DNA of 6,659 nt. Source: a virus. Lineage: Duplodnaviria > Heunggongvirae > Uroviricota > Caudoviricetes. Both the position numbers and the translations under genes were made by a program. The stretch's first letter is position 1, and every line of letters starts with the position of its first letter. Of the stretch, positions 2,184-6,659 are shown piece after piece. The DNA lies in IMG/VR virus record IMGVR_UViG_3300018467_000013. The stretch is one strand, 5' to 3'. Under the pieces are notes generated by a model. It did no database searches. It was not told the origin of the DNA and worked only from the letters and a program-made list of their open reading frames with translations.

Positions 2184-2259
2184 GCCGATATAGCTCAGTT
2201 GGTAGAGCAGCGCATTCGTAATGCGAAGGTCGTAGGTTCGACTCCTATTATCGGCACCA
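2184..2259 (+). tRNA. thrW: tRNA-Thr, anticodon CGU
   Basis: 76-nt sequence GCCGATATAGCTCAGTTGGTAGAGCAGCGCATTCGTAATGCGAAGGTCGTAGGTTCGACTCCTATTATCGGCACCA folds as a cloverleaf: 7-bp acceptor stem (GCCGATA/TATCGGC), D-arm AGCTC/GAGC, anticodon loop TTCGTAA with CGT, T-arm GTAGG/CCTAT with TTCGACT loop, encoded CCA end. Position directly downstream of proA matches the thrW locus. Confidence 0.92.
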
Positions 2260-2425: not shown

Positions 2426-3640
2426 GTGAAACTCAATGCCCGTCAAATAGACACTGCCAAGCCAAAAGAGAAGGCTTACAAGCTGGCTGATGGTGGTGGT
2501 CTGTATCTCCTGGTAAAACCTAGTGGAGGAAAATACTGGCGCTTTAAATATCGTGTAGCTGGTAAAGAGAAGCTGTTAGCACTAGGTGTGTATCCTGAAG
2601 TTACCTTGGCTGATGCTCGTGCAAAACGTGAAGAAGCTAAAAGGGGTATCGCTGGGGGTATCGATCCGATGGAAGCGAAACGAGAGGAAAAGATTGCCCG
2701 GGAAACGCAGTTAAACAATACCTTCAAAGATATTGCCCTTGAGTGGCACAGCAGCAAATTAAAAAAATGGTCTGCTGGTTATGCTTCAGATATCCTCGAA
2801 GCCTTCAACAAAGATGTGTTCCCTTACATTGGCAAAAAACCAATTGCCGAAATCAAACCACTTGAACTTCTGAATGTGCTGCGACGCATCGAGGGGCGCG
2901 GTGCTACAGAAAAAGCCAAAAAAGTGAGGCAGCGGTGCGGGGAAGTTTTCCGCTATGCAATAGTCACTGGTCGCGCAGAGTATAACCCTGCCCCAGATCT
3001 TACTAGCGCGATGCAAGGCCATGAATCTAATCATTATCCTTTCCTCACAGCCAAAGAATTGCCTGATTTTTTCAAGGCATTGTCCAGTTACTCAGGAAGT
3101 GCATTGGTTGTTATGGCGGCTCGTCTACTGATTATCACTGGTTTGCGAACTGGCGAACTGCGCGGTGCATTATGGGATGAAATCGATCTCAACAAGGCTA
3201 TCTGGGAGATACCTGCTTCACGGATGAAAATGCGTCGCCCTCATGTGGTGCCTTTGTCTAAGCAGGCTCTTTCTCTTATTGGGCAGATTAAAGAATTAAC
3301 TGGTAATTATCCGCTTATGTTTCCCGGCCGTAATGATCCAAGGAAAACAATGAGCGAGGCTAGCATAAACCAAGTATTTAAACGCATCGGCTATAACGGA
3401 AAGGTTACTGGTCATGGATTCCGGCACACCATGAGCACGATTTTACATGAGCAGGGCTATAACACCGCGTGGATAGAAACGCAGCTTGCACACGTTGATA
3501 AGAACTCAATTCGTGGCACGTACAATCATGCGCAATATCTGGACGGGCGGCGCGAGATGCTCCAGTGGTACGCCGACTATATGGATTCGCTCGAACATGG
3601 CGGTAACGTGGTGCATGGCAAGTTCGGAAAATGTGGATGA
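2426..3640 (+). CDS. Site-specific tyrosine recombinase, P4-family phage integrase
   Basis: 404-aa ORF with GTG start and a GGAGGT ribosome-binding site 8 bp upstream. The N-terminus (KLADGGGLYLLVKPSGGKYWRFKYRVAGKEKLLALGVYPEV) resembles the arm-binding domain of P4-type integrases. The C-terminal catalytic domain carries conserved R (RTGELRGALWDEIDL), the H-x-x-R box (HGFRHT) and the tyrosine nucleophile region (RGTYNHAQY). The gene is adjacent to the tRNA. Confidence 0.92.
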   Translation: MKLNARQIDTAKPKEKAYKLADGGGLYLLVKPSGGKYWRFKYRVAGKEKLLALGVYPEVTLADARAKREEAKRGIAGGIDPMEAKREEKIARETQLNNTFKDIALEWHSSKLKKWSAGYASDILEAFNKDVFPYIGKKPIAEIKPLELLNVLRRIEGRGATEKAKKVRQRCGEVFRYAIVTGRAEYNPAPDLTSAMQGHESNHYPFLTAKELPDFFKALSSYSGSALVVMAARLLIITGLRTGELRGALWDEIDLNKAIWEIPASRMKMRRPHVVPLSKQALSLIGQIKELTGNYPLMFPGRNDPRKTMSEASINQVFKRIGYNGKVTGHGFRHTMSTILHEQGYNTAWIETQLAHVDKNSIRGTYNHAQYLDGRREMLQWYADYMDSLEHGGNVVHGKFGKCG

Positions 3641-3762
3641 CTGGTTGCGTATACAGTAGTAGACTTTGAGCGACGAAAGAAAAGGCTGTGTCTAGGGTCG
3701 CTCCCGAAAATCCGTACACCTCGACGGACTGGTACAGCCACTACAGTAGAGGACGCTGAGGT

Positions 3763-4566
3763 GTGCGTATGATTGATATTCATGCCGAATTAAACGAATA
3801 CAAAAAAGATTTTATTTCTTTACGTGAATTTCTTGAGGTCGTGCTTAAGGTCGCTGGTGATGATTATGATGTTTCAGATGTCATAACTTGGATACTCAGG
3901 AGAATAAGCGGAGAACATATCCGCCTGTACACAGTAAATGAATTTAAGCTGTTGGAATCTTTTTGTAACCCGTATCGGGATGAATTTGATTATGATGTTC
4001 TTTATAGAAATCTGAATGCGGTTCGGAAACGTGGTTGTTTACCTGGTGAGAGGGATGAAAATGGTTTTCTGGTGTCCGGTTATTGGGAAGATCCCGAATT
4101 TGAGAACATTGGATTTATAAGGGGTGAAATTTTCGCAATTTTTCCCGATGTCCTTGACGCGTTAACGAAGCTGGAAGGCGCTAACTCTTCTGAAAATGAC
4201 GAGGCACAAGGACGCGATATTGAAAAGAAAGAGTTGCGTACAGAGGATGATTTATTATCCCAAATCGCAATGCTGGAAAAAGAAAACGCAGAGTTAAGGG
4301 CAAGGATAGAGCAGTTAGAGCAAGAGCGCCCGATACACTTATATAAATACTGGGATAAAGACCCATTAGCTAAGGCTATTGAGATTAGAAACAGAGAGTG
4401 GGCCAATTACGATCCAGAAAATGATTTTGCCACCAGGGGAAATCAAGAAGCGATAACCAGGGAGCTTAAGCAGTGGGGGGCAAGTAATGCACTTGCAACG
4501 CTCATAGAGAGGACTGCCTGCCCTATTAACCGAGACAACAGCCAAAAGAACGCAAAGCCGGATTAA
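3763..4566 (+). CDS. Hypothetical acidic coiled-coil protein (267 aa), orphan island cargo of unknown function
   Basis: Clean 804-bp ORF with GAGGT ribosome-binding site 7 bp before the ATG. It is strongly AT-rich relative to its flanks. The protein has a large excess of D/E over K/R, a central heptad-like segment (LLSQIAMLEKENAELRARIEQLEQER), and no Walker A, HTH or other motif I can recognise. It sits in the first cargo slot downstream of the integrase. Confidence 0.7.
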   Translation: MRMIDIHAELNEYKKDFISLREFLEVVLKVAGDDYDVSDVITWILRRISGEHIRLYTVNEFKLLESFCNPYRDEFDYDVLYRNLNAVRKRGCLPGERDENGFLVSGYWEDPEFENIGFIRGEIFAIFPDVLDALTKLEGANSSENDEAQGRDIEKKELRTEDDLLSQIAMLEKENAELRARIEQLEQERPIHLYKYWDKDPLAKAIEIRNREWANYDPENDFATRGNQEAITRELKQWGASNALATLIERTACPINRDNSQKNAKPD

Positions 4567-4581
4567 CGCACCATACCGCAT

Positions 4582-4723
4582 ACCCTGAGGGTGATTTACT
4601 GTTACCCTGAGGGTATTTTTTATCTTCCCCGTCAATTTTACCATCACCCTTAGGGTAGATTTCCTCCCGATTACCATCACCCTTAGGGTTAATTTCCTTC
4701 CGGTAACCATTAGGCCTGAGGGT
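4582..4723. repeat. Phased array of five near-palindromic 11-mers ACCCT(G/T)AGGGT, including 2.5 tandem copies of a ~33-bp unit; candidate operator or iteron array
   Basis: Copies at 4582-4592 and 4604-4614 (ACCCTGAGGGT), 4646-4656 and 4679-4689 (ACCCTTAGGGT, each within TTACCATCACCCTTAGGGT), and a degenerate copy at 4713-4723 (GGCCTGAGGGT). Start-to-start spacings are 22, 42, 33 and 34 bp, roughly whole helical turns. The array lies in the 226-bp gap between the orphan gene and alpA. Confidence 0.65.
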
Positions 4724-4792
4724 ATGAAAATATTCGTTATTTCTGTGCCATGATTACCTCGTCAAATTGAGTAGACGTTATGAGGTAAATAT

Positions 4793-4990
4793 ATGTCAAA
4801 TACGCTTATTCGTTTAACAGAAGTTCAGCGTAGAACTGGATATAGCAAGGCATGGATTTATCGCCTTATGGGGCAAGGTAAATTTCCTGTATCAGTTAAA
4901 ATTGGCTCGCGAGCTATTGCTTTCGTTGAGAGTGAAATTGACGAGTGGATTAATCAGCGTATTGCGGAATCACGCGGAACAGCTACCTGA
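4793..4990 (+). CDS. alpA: AlpA-family phage/island transcriptional regulator (Vis/Xis-like, MerR-type HTH)
   Basis: 65-aa ORF with GAGGT ribosome-binding site 9 bp upstream. The sequence LIRLTEVQRRTGYSKAWIYRLMGQGKFPVSVKIGSRAIAFVESEIDEWINQR matches the AlpA/Vis family signature (HTH followed by the ESEIDEW motif). Such genes typically sit near P4-type integrases. Confidence 0.85.
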   Translation: MSNTLIRLTEVQRRTGYSKAWIYRLMGQGKFPVSVKIGSRAIAFVESEIDEWINQRIAESRGTAT

Positions 4991-5067
4991 TTAAATGGCT
5001 ACGGGGCTATTGCCCCCAGCTATCCACCAGCAAATAAAAGTAACTTAATTCGATAGCAGGAGTTTTT

Positions 5068-5868
5068 ATGAAATTTCCAAAAACGCCCGTACAGGGGCGG
5101 GGCTTCGTTCGGCCTGAAAACCAGAATCTGCAAAATTTCGGCGAAATTATCCCGATTATTTCCGGCGTTATTGGCGGGAGTGAAACCACTATTGTTAGCG
5201 CCAGAGCGTTACATAAGGCGTTAGGTGTAGGGCGCGTTTTCCGTTCGTGGATCAAGGGGCGCATTGAAGAATACGGGTTCACGGAAGGCGTGGATTATGA
5301 GGTTGTTGAATATTTGAGCCGACCCGATCCGGTGAGCGCAAAATCTCGCCAGCAAACCGCTCTTGAGTACATCATCACAGTGAACATGGCGAAAGAACTG
5401 GCGATGGTCGAACGTACCGAACAGGGCCGCGCCGTTCGCCAGTACTTTATCAAATGCGAGGAGGAGCTACACAAGGTTGCGCCTGTTCGTTCCGCAGCGT
5501 TACGCCGGGAACTGAAAGCCCGTATCACAGTTGCCAGCTACTTTAAGCCAATGTGTGCCGCGCTGGAGGCGTACCGGGCTGAACTGGGTAAAAACACGTT
5601 CCAGCACCACTACACCACGGAAGCCAATATGCTGGCGCGTATCGTGCTGGGTGGCATGACTGCAAAACAGTGGGCGCAGGCGAACGGCATCACAGGCGAA
5701 CCACGCGACCACATGAGCACGTTGCAGCTTGAGCACCTTTCTTACCTTGAGCAGAGCAATATCACGCTGATTGAGTTAGGCCAGGGCTACCACCAGCGGA
5801 AAGCTGAATTAATTCGTCTTTCGCAGCGTTGGTTAGCCCGTCGCATGGAGGAAAACAGCCATGTGTAA
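5068..5868 (+). CDS. Phage antirepressor-like protein with AntA/AntB-type N-terminal domain
   Basis: 266-aa ORF with AGGAG ribosome-binding site 7 bp upstream. The N-terminal segment SARALHKALGVGRVFRSWIKGRIEEYGFTEGVDYEV resembles the AntA/AntB antirepressor domain consensus. G+C is closer to host-like, and the gene is co-directional with alpA. Family assignment is from memory of the domain signature, not from a search. Confidence 0.65.
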   Translation: MKFPKTPVQGRGFVRPENQNLQNFGEIIPIISGVIGGSETTIVSARALHKALGVGRVFRSWIKGRIEEYGFTEGVDYEVVEYLSRPDPVSAKSRQQTALEYIITVNMAKELAMVERTEQGRAVRQYFIKCEEELHKVAPVRSAALRRELKARITVASYFKPMCAALEAYRAELGKNTFQHHYTTEANMLARIVLGGMTAKQWAQANGITGEPRDHMSTLQLEHLSYLEQSNITLIELGQGYHQRKAELIRLSQRWLARRMEENSHV

Positions 5869-6628
5869 CGCTCTGACCGTTACAAAAAGAGAAAGCGCCC
5901 CGTTGCCGGAGCGCCTTTGTGAACGAATAGCCTACTGCGCCATATTGCTTACTGTCTACGAGGCAGATTATAGCGTTGTGGTCGCACAGAGTGAAGGCAC
6001 TGATCACCGTTACTACAGCACGCCAGAAATGCAGAATATTTCGCTGCAAAATGCCGTTGGCCACGCTGTCCGGAAAGCAAAAAATTTTGCTGGTGGCGTG
6101 ACTGATGCGATTTTGTCAGGTCACCAGGTGCTGATCAATCTGATGTCTGATTTCGTTCTGGATAAAACAAAGGCGACTGCAGAGGGCCACCAGTGGGAAA
6201 GCTACACACTTGAACACATTGCCAACAATGCCAGATTTGCGGCTGGTGGGCAATGTGATCAGTGTGCTGGCTTGCTGGTGGGCTATTCATGCTCTTTAAC
6301 ATTGCCATGCCGCGATGTTTTCCAGGTATGTGATCCCATTTTTGTGCGCCTGTACTCTTTAAGGAATTGCTCAAGGGCAAAAGCACATGGCGCGAATCTT
6401 TCTGATTCATGCTCTATCTTTCTGCGCCGTCTTTTCCGTGCCGGTGATAATGTTTTGGTCAATTCTTTATCGGTCATTGTGTTGTCCTGCATAGCAATGC
6501 GCCGTAATACCTTACACCACGGCGCTGATGGTGATTACTCTGGTTCTTTGGTCTTGCGACGCTGGAGTTCTTCGCGTGCAACGGTGACAAGCTGCCCGAT
6601 TTCTTCCGCTGCTTTGATGCCGATTTGA
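5861..6628 (+). CDS. Uncertain ORF; the 5' portion (to about 6300) may be a real coupled gene, the 3' portion is probably non-coding read-through
   Basis: The ATG at 5861 overlaps the upstream stop in ATGTGTAA, a translational-coupling arrangement. The ORF has no stop until a TGA formed at the adapter junction (6626-6628). Its last ~100 codons are rich in rare codons (AGG, ATA, TCA) and give a Cys/Ser/Arg/Leu-rich translation, whereas the opposite strand reads as a plausible protein C-terminus. Confidence 0.3.
   Translation: MCNALTVTKRESAPLPERLCERIAYCAILLTVYEADYSVVVAQSEGTDHRYYSTPEMQNISLQNAVGHAVRKAKNFAGGVTDAILSGHQVLINLMSDFVLDKTKATAEGHQWESYTLEHIANNARFAAGGQCDQCAGLLVGYSCSLTLPCRDVFQVCDPIFVRLYSLRNCSRAKAHGANLSDSCSIFLRRLFRAGDNVLVNSLSVIVLSCIAMRRNTLHHGADGDYSGSLVLRRWSSSRATVTSCPISSAALMPI
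6535..6627 (-). CDS. C-terminal fragment (30 codons plus stop) of a convergent gene whose body lies beyond the contig end
   Basis: Reverse-complement translation from 6627 gives QIGIKAAEEIGQLVTVAREELQRRKTKEPE followed by TAA (6537-6535), using common host codons and with a protein-like amphipathic composition. The frame is open to the adapter junction. Confidence 0.35.
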   Translation of the reverse strand, partial: QIGIKAAEEIGQLVTVAREELQRRKTKEPE

Positions 6629-6659
6629 GATCGGAAGAGCACACGTCTGAACTCCAGTC
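6628..6659. other. Illumina TruSeq adapter sequence (technical artefact, not genomic)
   Basis: AGATCGGAAGAGCACACGTCTGAACTCCAGTC matches the standard TruSeq read-through adapter prefix exactly. Confidence 0.95.

What the first reader, a model, noticed from the sequence alone, without database searches (positions are those of the whole stretch)
4793..5868. alpA plus antirepressor-like gene pair suggests a helper-responsive satellite or PICI-like control module
Seen directly: a 65-aa AlpA-family gene followed 77 bp later by a 266-aa gene with an AntA-like N-terminal domain, both co-directional with the integrase. Established knowledge: in P4-like elements and Gram-negative phage-inducible chromosomal islands, an AlpA/Vis-type protein acts as the master activator or excision factor, and antirepressors interfere with resident or helper-phage repressors. 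Inference: the island may sense or manipulate a helper phage. The antA-like gene has host-like G+C, unlike the orphan gene, suggesting a mosaic origin.
Basis: partly seen in the sequence, partly recalled or inferred. Interest (0 to 1): 0.45.

Follow-up and report, generated by a model that had tools for sequence, protein, structure and literature searches.

The report
Control end of a phage satellite
The alpA and antA-like genes are real and form the left-hand control region of a phage-inducible chromosomal island (PICI), a known kind of phage satellite, inserted in the E. coli thrW tRNA gene; this is an ordinary new member, and the "antirepressor" role is untested.

Summary
alpA (4793-4990, 65 aa) and an AntA-domain gene (5068-5868, 266 aa) lie 77 bp apart, co-directional with a P4-type integrase next to tRNA-Thr thrW.

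The island is a Gram-negative PICI:
- Int is 97%, AlpA 81% and AntA 58% identical to those of EcCIMP1, an experimentally proven PICI at the same site, where alpA is the helper-induced master regulator.
- Near-identical islands in complete E. coli genomes are about 16 kb. They carry a primase-helicase, ProQ, PerC, a TerS-like gene and defence cargo, but no capsid, tail, lysis or transfer genes.
- The backbone matches the prototype EcCICFT073.
- The layout fits the published four-zone scheme: integration, Bro, replication, late.

The AntA-like protein is a Bro-network protein with a DNA-binding-type fold. It has no KilAC domain and no tested antirepressor activity. EcCICFT073 keeps only a stump of this gene yet is induced and transferred, so antA is accessory.

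Beyond the finding, alpA appears to have its own upstream control elements: an int-alpA RNA motif, a non-orphan gene whose conserved C-terminal domain tracks an array of ACCCTnAGGGT palindromes, and a hairpin that hides the alpA ribosome-binding site.

The parts
2184..2259 (+). tRNA-Thr(CGT) thrW, the integration site. The attL core TCCTATTATC lies at 2243-2252.
   Evidence: ARAGORN and Rfam tRNA, 71.8 bits. The core is the same as the one published for EcCIMP1 and was located. A second copy lies 15.7 kb (L001) and 16.0 kb (L052) to the right in complete genomes.
2426..3640 (+). P4-type tyrosine integrase (404 aa), transcribed inward from the left end.
   Evidence: Arm-DNA-bind_3, Phage_int_M and Phage_integrase domains. 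97% identical to IntS_1 of EcCIMP1.
3685..3752 (+). int-alpA RNA motif (Rfam RF02996). It ends in the ribosome-binding site of the next gene.
   Evidence: 45.5 bits against a gathering score of 35.8. The motif is in the same place in 6 of 6 related loci that contain int.
3769..4566 (+). The 'gap' gene between int and alpA (265 aa from the ATG at 3769, or 267 aa from the GTG at 3763). It has a variable N-terminal domain, a coiled coil and a conserved C-terminal domain ending in ACPI(K/N)R. Candidate DNA-binding regulator of alpA (inference).
   Evidence: No Pfam, PHROG, NCBIfam or PADLOC match. 43 homologues; alignment A2. Homologues occupy the same slot in other genera. The C-terminal domain defines 55 clusters among 1.84 billion representatives and is nearly always at the C-terminus. 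Model pLDDT 76, with only weak winged-helix and RecX-like fold matches.
4581..4726 (.). Array of five 5-N-5 palindromes, (T)ACCCTnAGGGT(A), centred at 4587, 4609, 4651, 4684 and 4718. Spacings are 22, 42, 33 and 34 bp. Candidate operator array of the alpA promoter.
   Evidence: 5 matches, all within this stretch of about 145 bp; 1.4 expected by chance in the whole window. The palindromes are conserved islands within diverged spacer DNA in Salmonella, Yersinia, Raoultella, Symbiopectobacterium and Cedecea. They are present only where the upstream gene has the ACPI-type C-terminal domain.
4754..4788 (+). alpA leader hairpin. UUACCUCGU (4754-4762) pairs with AUGAGGUAA (4780-4788) and sequesters the Shine-Dalgarno GAGG at 4782-4785. 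A conserved TGnCATGAT (extended -10-like) sits at 4746-4754; its role is inference only.
   Evidence: P(SD paired) is 0.97 in the window, with 14 of 200 shuffles as good. 15 of 25 alpA leaders have P>0.8, and 10 of 25 beat at least 95% of shuffles, using different stem sequences. The block is conserved in alignment A4.
4793..4990 (+). alpA (65 aa), an AlpA/Vis-family winged-helix regulator. Probable master activator of the island.
   Evidence: PF05930 at 4.6e-19. 81% identical to the AlpA of EcCIMP1 that is required for excision and transfer. 37% identical to P4 Vis.
5068..5868 (+). antA-like gene (266 aa), a Bro-network protein. It has a disordered N-terminus, an AntA domain (residues 43-117), a long helix (118-172) and a conserved helical C-terminal domain.
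5892..5917 (-). G+C-rich hairpin followed by a U-run on the minus strand. It terminates the leftward unit and probably also marks the end of the alpA-antA unit.
   Evidence: -22.6 kcal/mol, z=-3.97, 0 of 200 shuffles as good. 91% conserved in EcCICFT073.
6283..6492 (-). Small gene (69 aa, phrog_21027) of the leftward unit.
   Evidence: phrog_21027 at 1.4e-30. Annotated in relatives. 86% identical in EcCICFT073.
6535..6627 (-). 3' end of a YlcI/YnfO-family gene, cut off by the end of the contig.
   Evidence: tblastn: residues 72-101 of the L001 protein, 87% identical, at 6627-6538. Annotation of L001.

Best explanation
The window holds the left (integration and control) end of a Gram-negative phage-inducible chromosomal island (PICI) integrated in thrW. 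It combines an EcCIMP1-type Int, AlpA and AntA with an EcCICFT073-type backbone.

Most likely mechanism:
1. While the island is quiescent, alpA is kept off.
2. When a helper phage enters lytic growth, alpA transcription rises and AlpA activates its own promoter. This is shown for EcCICFT073 and EcCIMP1 and is inferred here from 81% identity.
3. AlpA turns on the rightward genes. The first of them here is antA, 77 bp away with no terminator between. With Int, this leads to excision, then replication by the island's primase-helicase and packaging in helper particles. These steps are shown for the two reference islands. The necessary genes are present in near-identical islands, but the window itself does not reach them.
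4. AntA is therefore an AlpA-dependent early protein of the 'Bro zone'. It is probably a dimeric DNA-binding regulator that modulates helper or island transcription. It is accessory rather than essential, and its target is unknown (inference).
5. Helper sensing more probably sits upstream of alpA. There, a variable gene with a conserved C-terminal domain is followed by an array of palindromes that co-vary with that domain, and a hairpin hides the alpA ribosome-binding site (inference from comparative data).
For: Homology to proven PICIs:
- Same att site and core as EcCIMP1; Int 97%, AlpA 81%, AntA 58% identical.
- In EcCIMP1, alpA deletion abolishes excision and transduction, and alpA-lux is induced only in helper lysogens (PMC11773190).
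- In EcCICFT073, AlpA activates its own promoter and the downstream ORF3, and its over-expression induces excision and replication (PMC6092414).

Downstream content:
- Three complete genomes whose left end is 97-99% identical to the window carry Icd-like, DUF4222, primase-helicase, ProQ, PerC, a TerS-like HTH gene and terminal defence cargo. None has capsid, tail, lysis or tra genes. Islands measure 15.7 and 16.0 kb between core repeats.
- Backbone shared with EcCICFT073: primase 70%, Icd 74%, PerC 53% and phrog_21027 protein 86% identical.

Conservation of the arrangement:
- Across 43 species-level loci with an AntA homologue, AlpA lies just upstream in 26, Int upstream in 31 and a primase downstream in 34.
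- The layout fits the published four-zone PICI organisation, in which a Bro-network gene follows alpA (PMC10111431).
- AntA, YlcI/YnfO and Icd are listed together in Enterobacter PICIs (PMC13612085).

Upstream control elements.
Against: - The window stops at 6627 (adapter from 6628), so the replication and packaging modules of this very island are unseen.
- No helper phage is known for it, and nothing here was tested experimentally.
- EcCIMP1 and EcCICFT073 lack the gap gene and the palindromes, yet both are helper-inducible. That upstream switch cannot be general.
- The hairpin statistic for the window alone is weak (14 of 200 shuffles as good), and 10 of 25 leaders show no such hairpin.
- Co-variation of the palindromes with the adjacent gene could partly reflect physical linkage.
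- AntA's role is inferred from fold and position only.
Confidence: 0.85

Rival explanations
1. AntA is a true antirepressor. Once made, it binds the CI-type repressor of a resident helper prophage and induces it, as P4 epsilon does with P2 and as P1 Ant does with C1. The satellite would thus provoke its own helper.
For: - Family name and PHROG labels.
- P4-like satellites do carry a helper derepressor (PMC10085698).
- The gene is strongly conserved in EcCIMP1-like elements and sits in the AlpA-controlled early position.
- A full-length homologue exists in a temperate phage, Edwardsiella EPP-1.
Against: - No ANT/KilAC domain.
- The AntA domain has a DNA-binding-type fold. In AriS it modulates transcription of its own phage, and its 'exact function is still unclear' (PMC9043618).
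- Bro-network relatives act as DNA-binding repressors, for example PLE CapR.
- EcCICFT073 has only residues 1-48 of this gene plus a Bro-N-like fragment, yet it is induced and transferred.
- AlpA expression already requires an induced helper, which leaves little need for derepression.
Confidence: 0.25
2. The island in the source strain is an immobile, decaying remnant. The alpA-antA pair would be a relic with no current function.
For: - The window shows only the left end.
- L001 has an integrase pseudogene near its right end, and L053 carries IS1 and IS66 insertions.
- Type C PICIs 'may be defective'.
Against: - int, the gap gene, alpA and antA are all intact, with good ribosome-binding sites.
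- Sequence is 96-99% identical in 106 complete genomes of unrelated origin.
- The operator-like sites and the leader are conserved across genera, which indicates purifying selection.
- The closest studied relative is mobile.
Confidence: 0.08
3. The element belongs to another alpA-bearing class: a P4-like satellite, a capsid-forming PICI, an integrative mobilizable element (PIME) moved by conjugative plasmids, or a conventional prophage.
For: - int plus alpA plus a primase is also the core of P4-like elements and of PIMEs.
- AlpA is 37% identical to P4 Vis.
- A DUF2213 / head-protease-like fragment occurs in L001.
Against: - In the three complete relatives there is no psu, delta, sid or ash among the annotations or in the family scans of selected genes.
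- No C4/isrK immunity RNA in the window or in L001 positions 21400-26600.
- No capsid, portal or TerL; no trbJ, trbL or relaxase; no tail or lysis genes.
- AntA has no detectable similarity to the P4 ORF in the same position.
Confidence: 0.05

Closest known systems
EcCIMP1, the PICI of E. coli MP1 (Pick, Stadel and Raivio 2025, ISME J, PMC11773190)
   Same: Same integration site (thrW, between proA and yagU) and the same att core, TCCTATTATC. Int is 97%, AlpA 81% and the AntA-family 'antirepressor' 58% identical over the full length. The gene order int-alpA-...-antA and the orientation are the same.
   Different: EcCIMP1 has no gene between int and alpA (a 427-bp gap with no ACCCTnAGGGT array and no int-alpA RNA at gathering score). 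It has a 143-aa gene between alpA and antA. antA is followed by DUF4222, ash, C4/isrK RNAs and icd. It uses a Toprim/DUF927 primase and P22-like ejection-protein genes. The window lineage instead has a leftward unit (phrog_21027 gene plus YlcI/YnfO) and a D5-type primase.
EcCICFT073, the prototype Gram-negative PICI (Fillol-Salom et al. 2018, ISME J, PMC6092414)
   Same: Backbone to the right of antA: leftward small gene plus YlcI/YnfO, then Icd-like, small ORFs, DUF4222, D5-type primase (70% identical) and PerC. The terminator hairpin after antA is 91% identical. AlpA is a helper-induced, self-activating master regulator.
   Different: It has a different integrase and att site, near roxA (Int 25% identical), and a different AlpA allele (37%). 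There is no gap gene. antA is reduced to residues 1-48 fused to a Bro-N-like fragment and is not annotated. It carries capsid-like and head-decoration genes.
General four-zone organisation of Gram-negative PICIs (PMC10111431, NAR Genomics and Bioinformatics 2023)
   Same: An integration zone (Int plus AlpA) followed by a 'Bro zone' of domain-swapping Bro-network proteins. AntA is one of the ten listed Pfam families. Replication and late zones follow. The window shows zones 1 and 2; relatives show zones 3 and 4.
   Different: In the passages of that paper retrieved here, the conserved gene between int and alpA, its palindrome array and the alpA leader hairpin are not mentioned. The window lineage lacks the C4/isrK immunity RNAs found in many Bro zones.
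Satellite phage P4 (vis, then the eta/cI/kil region, then epsilon and alpha)
   Same: An AlpA-family gene (Vis, 37% identical) heads the early operon that leads to a primase. The ORF that follows it is described in the literature as a Bro-network gene. The satellite carries a helper-directed regulator (epsilon).
   Different: There is no psu-delta-sid operon and no CI RNA. AntA is not homologous to the P4 ORF in that position (hhalign probability 0.2%). P4 Vis is an excisionase and repressor rather than a master activator.
AriS of Listeria phage phi10403S and P1/P7 Ant (AntA/AntB-domain proteins)
   Same: N-terminal PF08346 domain. In AriS this domain acts on the genes of the element that encodes it.
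   Different: [quoted passage not shown] The protein here has a different helical C-terminal domain. That domain is shared with Rha-family regulators of P22-like phages and with PADLOC candidate PDC-S22.

Membership tests
Gram-negative PICI | Integrase at one end, transcribed inward, with a specific chromosomal att site | tested here: met
   int at 2426-3640 (+), 167 bp from thrW. The attL core TCCTATTATC is at 2243-2252. An attR copy occurs in relatives.
Gram-negative PICI | alpA downstream of int in the same orientation, acting as master activator | tested here: met
   Presence and position are met. Activity is not testable here and is inferred from 81% identity to the proven EcCIMP1 AlpA.
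Gram-negative PICI | Bro-network gene(s) after alpA (the 'Bro zone') | tested here: met
   AntA (PF08346) lies 77 bp after alpA. Rha or Bro-N genes fill the same slot in relatives.
Gram-negative PICI | Own replication module (primase-helicase, pri-rep) downstream | tested here: inconclusive
   Not inside the window, which ends at 6627. Present in all three complete islands whose left end is 97-99% identical and in 34 of 43 species-level loci.
Gram-negative PICI | About 10-20 kb, with no phage structural or lysis modules | tested here: inconclusive
   Met in relatives: 15.7 and 16.0 kb, with no capsid, tail or lysis genes. Not visible for the source strain.
Gram-negative PICI | Helper-phage-dependent induction, packaging and high-frequency transfer | not testable with these tools
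   Shown only for EcCIMP1 and EcCICFT073.
AlpA family (PF05930) | AlpA/Vis-type winged-helix domain of about 50 residues | tested here: met
   68.5 bits against a cut-off of 21; residues 5-53.
AntA/AntB antirepressor family (PF08346) | AntA domain | tested here: met
   82.8 bits against a cut-off of 27; residues 43-117.
AntA/AntB antirepressor family (PF08346) | C-terminal ANT/KilAC domain, as in P1 Ant and AriS | tested here: not met
   No PF03374 match at E<=0.01. The C-terminal domain matches phrog_2657 and PDC-S22 instead.
AntA/AntB antirepressor family (PF08346) | Binds and inactivates a phage repressor | not testable with these tools
The literature calls the function of the domain unclear.
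P4-like satellite | psu-delta-sid capsid-hijack operon, epsilon/ash, CI (C4-type) immunity RNA | tested here: not met
   None in the annotations of the relatives or in family scans of selected genes. No C4/isrK in the window or in L001 positions 21400-26600.
Capsid-forming PICI (cf-PICI) | Own capsid, portal, protease, connectors, TerS and TerL | tested here: not met
   Relatives have only a weak TerS-like HTH protein and a DUF2213 fragment.
PIME (integrative mobilizable element) | trbJ/trbL and tra mobilisation genes alongside int, alpA and repA | tested here: not met
   No such genes are annotated in L001, L052 or L053. Definition taken.
Conventional temperate prophage | Immunity, replication, lysis, head and tail modules | tested here: not met
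   Absent from the complete relatives.

The most novel reading that the evidence does not exclude
In this PICI subfamily, the gene between int and alpA (3769-4566) would encode the missing helper-sensing regulator of Gram-negative PICIs. It would be a dimer that binds the ACCCTnAGGGT operator array over the alpA promoter through its conserved C-terminal domain. Its fast-evolving N-terminal domain would recognise a helper-phage protein, analogous to Stl of the staphylococcal islands. The Shine-Dalgarno-hiding hairpin would keep read-through transcripts from producing AlpA. AntA would then be an effector made only after this switch flips.
Probability: 0.3. Interest if true: 0.65.

Novelty: new member of a known kind. 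Interest (0 to 1): 0.33.

Why it matters
As stated, the finding only identifies one more PICI. These islands are common in E. coli: this alpA-antA pair is in about 3% of complete genomes. Both the gene pair and the island type have already been described.

The value lies in two points.
- It corrects the reading of 'antirepressor'. The gene fills a swappable Bro-network slot and is dispensable in the prototype, so it should not be taken as evidence of helper manipulation.
- How helper phages switch on alpA in Gram-negative PICIs is still unknown. In 2018 the EcCICFT073 authors wrote that the inducer was 'under study' and that the existence of a repressor was 'unclear'. The conserved palindrome array, the co-varying upstream gene and the leader hairpin found here give concrete, cheap targets for testing that question in one subfamily.

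Tried and rejected
- **Solved structures.** A profile search with the AntA alignment gave no match at E<=1.
- **Family scans of the gap protein.** NCBIfam, PADLOC, Pfam and PHROGs all gave nothing. A Pfam scan of 25 relatives found no recurrent N-terminal domain. One relative (344 aa) has only part of the domain, near its N-terminus. Separately, one of the 25 relatives scanned has LacI-type Peripla_BP domains. I did not check whether they are the same protein. If they are, it is probably a chimeric gene call.
- **Terminator or structured element between alpA and antA.** Rejected (z=-1.26, no U-run).
- **Sigma-70 promoters.** The scan found none on the + strand between 2100 and 6659. The proposed extended -10 therefore rests only on conservation.
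- **C4/isrK immunity RNAs.** Absent from the window and from L001 positions 21400-26600 even at E<=1, although present in EcCIMP1 and in four other loci.
- **AlpA as the protein that binds the palindromes.** Judged unlikely. Loci whose AlpA N-terminal halves are nearly identical have different upstream repeats.
- **The palindromes as integrase arm sites or as the replication origin.** Judged unlikely, from position. They lie 2.3 kb from the att core. In the quoted text, the pri-rep genes are followed by the origin in Gram-positive PICIs, and Gram-negative PICIs are said to share a conserved origin organisation.
- **The 255-aa + strand ORF at 5861-6628.** Rejected as a gene. It has no family match and runs antisense to conserved, annotated minus-strand genes. 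The same artefact appears in CFT073.
- **First look for EcCICFT073.** It landed on a lambdoid prophage. The island was found in the second attempt.
Full report
**What is in the window**

The first 2.2 kb are E. coli core genes: proB (partial), proA and tRNA-Thr(CGT) thrW at 2184-2259. From 2260 onward, G+C falls from 54% to 47%. The + strand then carries:
- a P4-type integrase (2426-3640);
- a 265/267-aa gene (3763 or 3769 to 4566);
- alpA (4793-4990);
- the antA-like gene (5068-5868).

Downstream, a strong minus-strand terminator (5892-5917; z=-3.97) closes a leftward unit. That unit consists of a phrog_21027 small gene (6283-6492) and a YlcI/YnfO gene, which is cut at 6627. Bases 6628-6659 are the Illumina TruSeq adapter AGATCGGAAGAGCACACGTCTGAACTCCAGTC. 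The contig therefore ends artificially, and the rest of the island is not available.

**Check of the observation**

- AlpA matches PF05930 at 4.6e-19. The 266-aa protein matches PF08346 (AntA) at 2.6e-23 over residues 43-117.
- PHROGs label them excisionase/regulator and anti-repressor Ant.
- The composition claim is also correct: antA 53.4% G+C, alpA 42.4%, upstream gene 41.7%, flanking core genes 54.3%.

**What the island is**

The closest studied relative is EcCIMP1.
- It is a 20-kb PICI of E. coli MP1, integrated in tRNA-Thr between proA and yagU, with the core TCCTATTATC (PMC11773190). The same core sits at 2243-2252 of the window.
- Int is 97% identical, AlpA 81%, and the AntA-family 'antirepressor' 58% over its full length.
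- In that paper, the alpA next to int is required for excision, circularisation and transduction. [quoted passage not shown]

Near-identical islands are complete satellites.
- megablast finds the 4.4-kb left end at 96-99% identity in 106 complete E. coli genomes. The alpA-antA pair is in 169 of 5,426 genomes, always chromosomal.
- Three of these islands were read in full (L001, L052, L053). After antA come the leftward small gene and YlcI/YnfO. Then, rightward: Icd-like, small ORFs, DUF4222, a primase-helicase (D5_N/DUF5906 in two islands, RepA-type in one), ProQ/FinO, PerC, unknown 'late' genes and a 175-aa HTH protein weakly similar to TerS. Variable terminal cargo follows: an ORC/Cdc6-like ATPase with a zinc ribbon; a methyltransferase with DUF262 and a HEPN nuclease; or GapS1.
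- A second copy of the att core lies 15.7 and 16.0 kb from the first.
- No capsid, portal, TerL, tail, lysis or conjugation genes are present.

The backbone is that of the prototype PICI EcCICFT073 (L055): primase 70%, Icd 74%, PerC 53% and phrog_21027 protein 86% identical.

It cannot be applied to the source strain itself.

**Is the alpA-antA arrangement a conserved module?**

An AntA profile scan of one genome per species returned 43 loci in Enterobacterales genera.
- A co-oriented AlpA lies within 1.5 kb upstream in 26 of them.
- An integrase lies upstream in 31, a primase lies 2-8 kb downstream in 34, and all three are present in 20.
- Six loci have none of the three: five from Edwardsiella and one from Dryocola. 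A full-length homologue sits in a genuine Edwardsiella phage, EPP-1.
- Serratia and Yersinia examples show the same order at other att sites.

[quoted passage not shown] A 2026 survey lists AntA/AntB, YlcI/YnfO and Icd together in Enterobacter PICIs and cf-PICIs. The pair is therefore a known feature of a known class.

**What AntA is and is not**

Structure and domains:
- The AlphaFold model (pLDDT 81.7) has a disordered N-terminus, an alpha/beta AntA domain (24-114), a 55-residue helix and a helical C-terminal domain.
- There is no ANT/KilAC domain. The C-terminal domain resembles that of Rha-family regulators of P22-like phages (H45; phrog_2657) and PADLOC candidate PDC-S22.

Function:
- The literature states that the function of the AntA/AntB domain is unclear. 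In AriS it modulates transcription of its own phage (PMC9043618).
- In EcCICFT073 the slot after alpA holds only residues 1-48 of this gene (73% identical; DNA 90% over window 5086-5213), joined to a weak Bro-N-like fragment. It is not annotated. That island is nevertheless induced, replicated and transferred at up to 1e6 transductants per ml. In that paper an 'ORF3' downstream of alpA is AlpA-activated; it may be this fragment.
- In other relatives the slot holds Rha or Bro-N genes.

I conclude that antA is an AlpA-dependent early accessory gene of the Bro zone and most likely a DNA-binding regulator. 'Antirepressor' is a label, not a result. The break in CFT073 homology inside the gene also explains the host-like G+C as mosaicism.

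**Upstream of alpA**

This goes beyond the finding, but it bears on 'helper-responsive control'.

1. **int-alpA RNA.** Rfam's int-alpA RNA (RF02996) is at 3685-3752, above its gathering score. Its 3' end is the ribosome-binding site of the next gene. It is in the same place in all six related loci examined that contain int.

2. **The 'orphan' gene is not an orphan.**
   - It has 43 homologues and occupies the int-alpA gap in many genera.
   - Its N-terminal half is highly variable. A coiled coil follows, and the last 75 or so residues (...ACPI(K/N)R) are strongly conserved.
   - That domain defines a small family: 55 clusters among 1.84 billion representatives, nearly always at the C-terminus.

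3. **Five palindromes lie between this gene and alpA.**
   - They read (T)ACCCTnAGGGT(A), are spaced 22, 42, 33 and 34 bp apart, and are the only such sites in the window.
   - The same array, at the same distances from alpA, recurs in Yersinia, Raoultella, Symbiopectobacterium, Salmonella and, in degenerate form, Cedecea. The palindromes stand out as conserved islands in otherwise diverged spacer DNA, and they occur nowhere else in those loci.
   - The array occurs downstream of every gene with the ACPI-type C-terminal domain. More divergent domains (37-41% identical) are followed by ACTATnATAGT-like variants.
   - It occurs in no locus whose gap gene has another C-terminal domain; those loci have other repeats, such as ACTTCCA.
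   - It does not track AlpA. Near-identical AlpA N-terminal halves go with different repeats.
   - The simplest reading, which is an inference, is that the gap protein binds this array as a dimer and controls the alpA promoter.
   - Fold evidence for DNA binding is weak, and physical linkage may inflate the association.

4. **A leader hairpin hides the alpA ribosome-binding site.**
   - The last 40 nt before alpA form a hairpin whose 3' arm is the Shine-Dalgarno sequence (4754-4762 pairs with 4780-4788).
   - 15 of 25 alpA leaders, including that of EcCICFT073, have P(SD paired) above 0.8. 10 of 25 beat at least 95% of shuffles, using several unrelated stem sequences.
   - For the window alone the statistic is modest (14 of 200 shuffles as good).
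   - A conserved TGnCATGAT just upstream could be an extended -10 element. Transcripts starting there would lack the anti-SD arm, so only promoter-proximal transcripts would be translated. This is speculation.

EcCIMP1 and EcCICFT073 lack the gap gene and the palindromes, so this switch cannot be universal.

**Classification and novelty**

The element fails the tests for a P4-like satellite, a cf-PICI, a PIME and a prophage in its complete relatives. It meets the sequence-level tests for a Gram-negative PICI. Helper-dependent induction and transfer cannot be tested here. It is a new, unnamed member of a known kind: a mosaic of an EcCIMP1-type left end and an EcCICFT073-type backbone. Interest is low to moderate. 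The part worth following up is the candidate alpA switch.

Noticed in passing
window 6628-6659: The last 32 bases are the Illumina TruSeq read adapter AGATCGGAAGAGCACACGTCTGAACTCCAGTC. The contig end is an assembly artefact, and the ORFs that run into it are not real.
   Followed up: yes
window 3685-3752 (+): Rfam int-alpA RNA motif (RF02996; 45.5 bits against a gathering score of 35.8). Its 3' end overlaps the ribosome-binding site of the following gene. It is found at the same place in six related loci, whichever gene follows. It looks like a 5' leader rather than a free-standing sRNA.
   Followed up: partly
window 3769-4566 (+): The 'orphan' low-G+C gene belongs to a fast-evolving family fixed in the int-alpA gap of PICIs in many Enterobacterales. 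It has a variable N-terminal domain, a coiled coil and a conserved C-terminal ...ACPI(K/N)R domain (55 clusters in 1.84 billion representatives; no Pfam family).
   Followed up: partly
window 4581-4726: Five ACCCTnAGGGT palindromes spaced by whole helical turns. They are conserved in position across genera and co-vary with the C-terminal domain of the upstream gene, not with AlpA.
   Followed up: partly
window 4754-4788 (+): A hairpin sequesters the alpA Shine-Dalgarno sequence. Equivalent hairpins with different stem sequences occur in 15 of 25 alpA leaders, including EcCICFT073. A loop motif TAGAC and an upstream TGnCATGAT are conserved as well.
   Followed up: partly
window 5869-6282: About 410 bp with no convincing gene lie between antA and the leftward phrog_21027 gene. 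The leftward terminator (5892-5917) is roughly 365 nt beyond that gene's stop. A promoter-like site on the minus strand (5995-5967; 10 of 12 matches) sits about 50 nt upstream of the terminator, so a short minus-strand RNA is possible. The 255-aa + strand ORF at 5861-6628 is an antisense artefact.
   Followed up: no
L055 17715-18242 (E. coli CFT073, EcCICFT073): The unannotated stretch after alpA of the prototype PICI holds a truncated, domain-swapped antA: residues 1-48 plus a weak Bro-N-like fragment. It may be the 'ORF3' of the 2018 paper.
   Followed up: partly
window 5581-5829 (AntA residues 172-254): The C-terminal domain of AntA matches PADLOC phage-defence candidate PDC-S22 (E=1.8e-9) and the C-terminal part of Rha-family regulators of P22-like Salmonella phages.
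   Followed up: no
L001 32485-34904; L052 26601-29699; L053 31846-32434: The right ends of otherwise similar islands carry different probable anti-phage cargo: a 229-aa protein with an ORC/Cdc6-like ATPase that has a zinc ribbon; a methyltransferase with DUF262 and a HEPN nuclease; and GapS1. This is a defence hotspot next to attR.
   Followed up: no
L011, L029, L033, L035 (about 300-850 bp after antA) and L002 24600-24827: In EcCIMP1 and four other loci, antA is followed by an isrK plus C4 antisense RNA pair (P1/P4-type RNA immunity). The window lineage has replaced this segment with the leftward YlcI/YnfO unit.
   Followed up: partly
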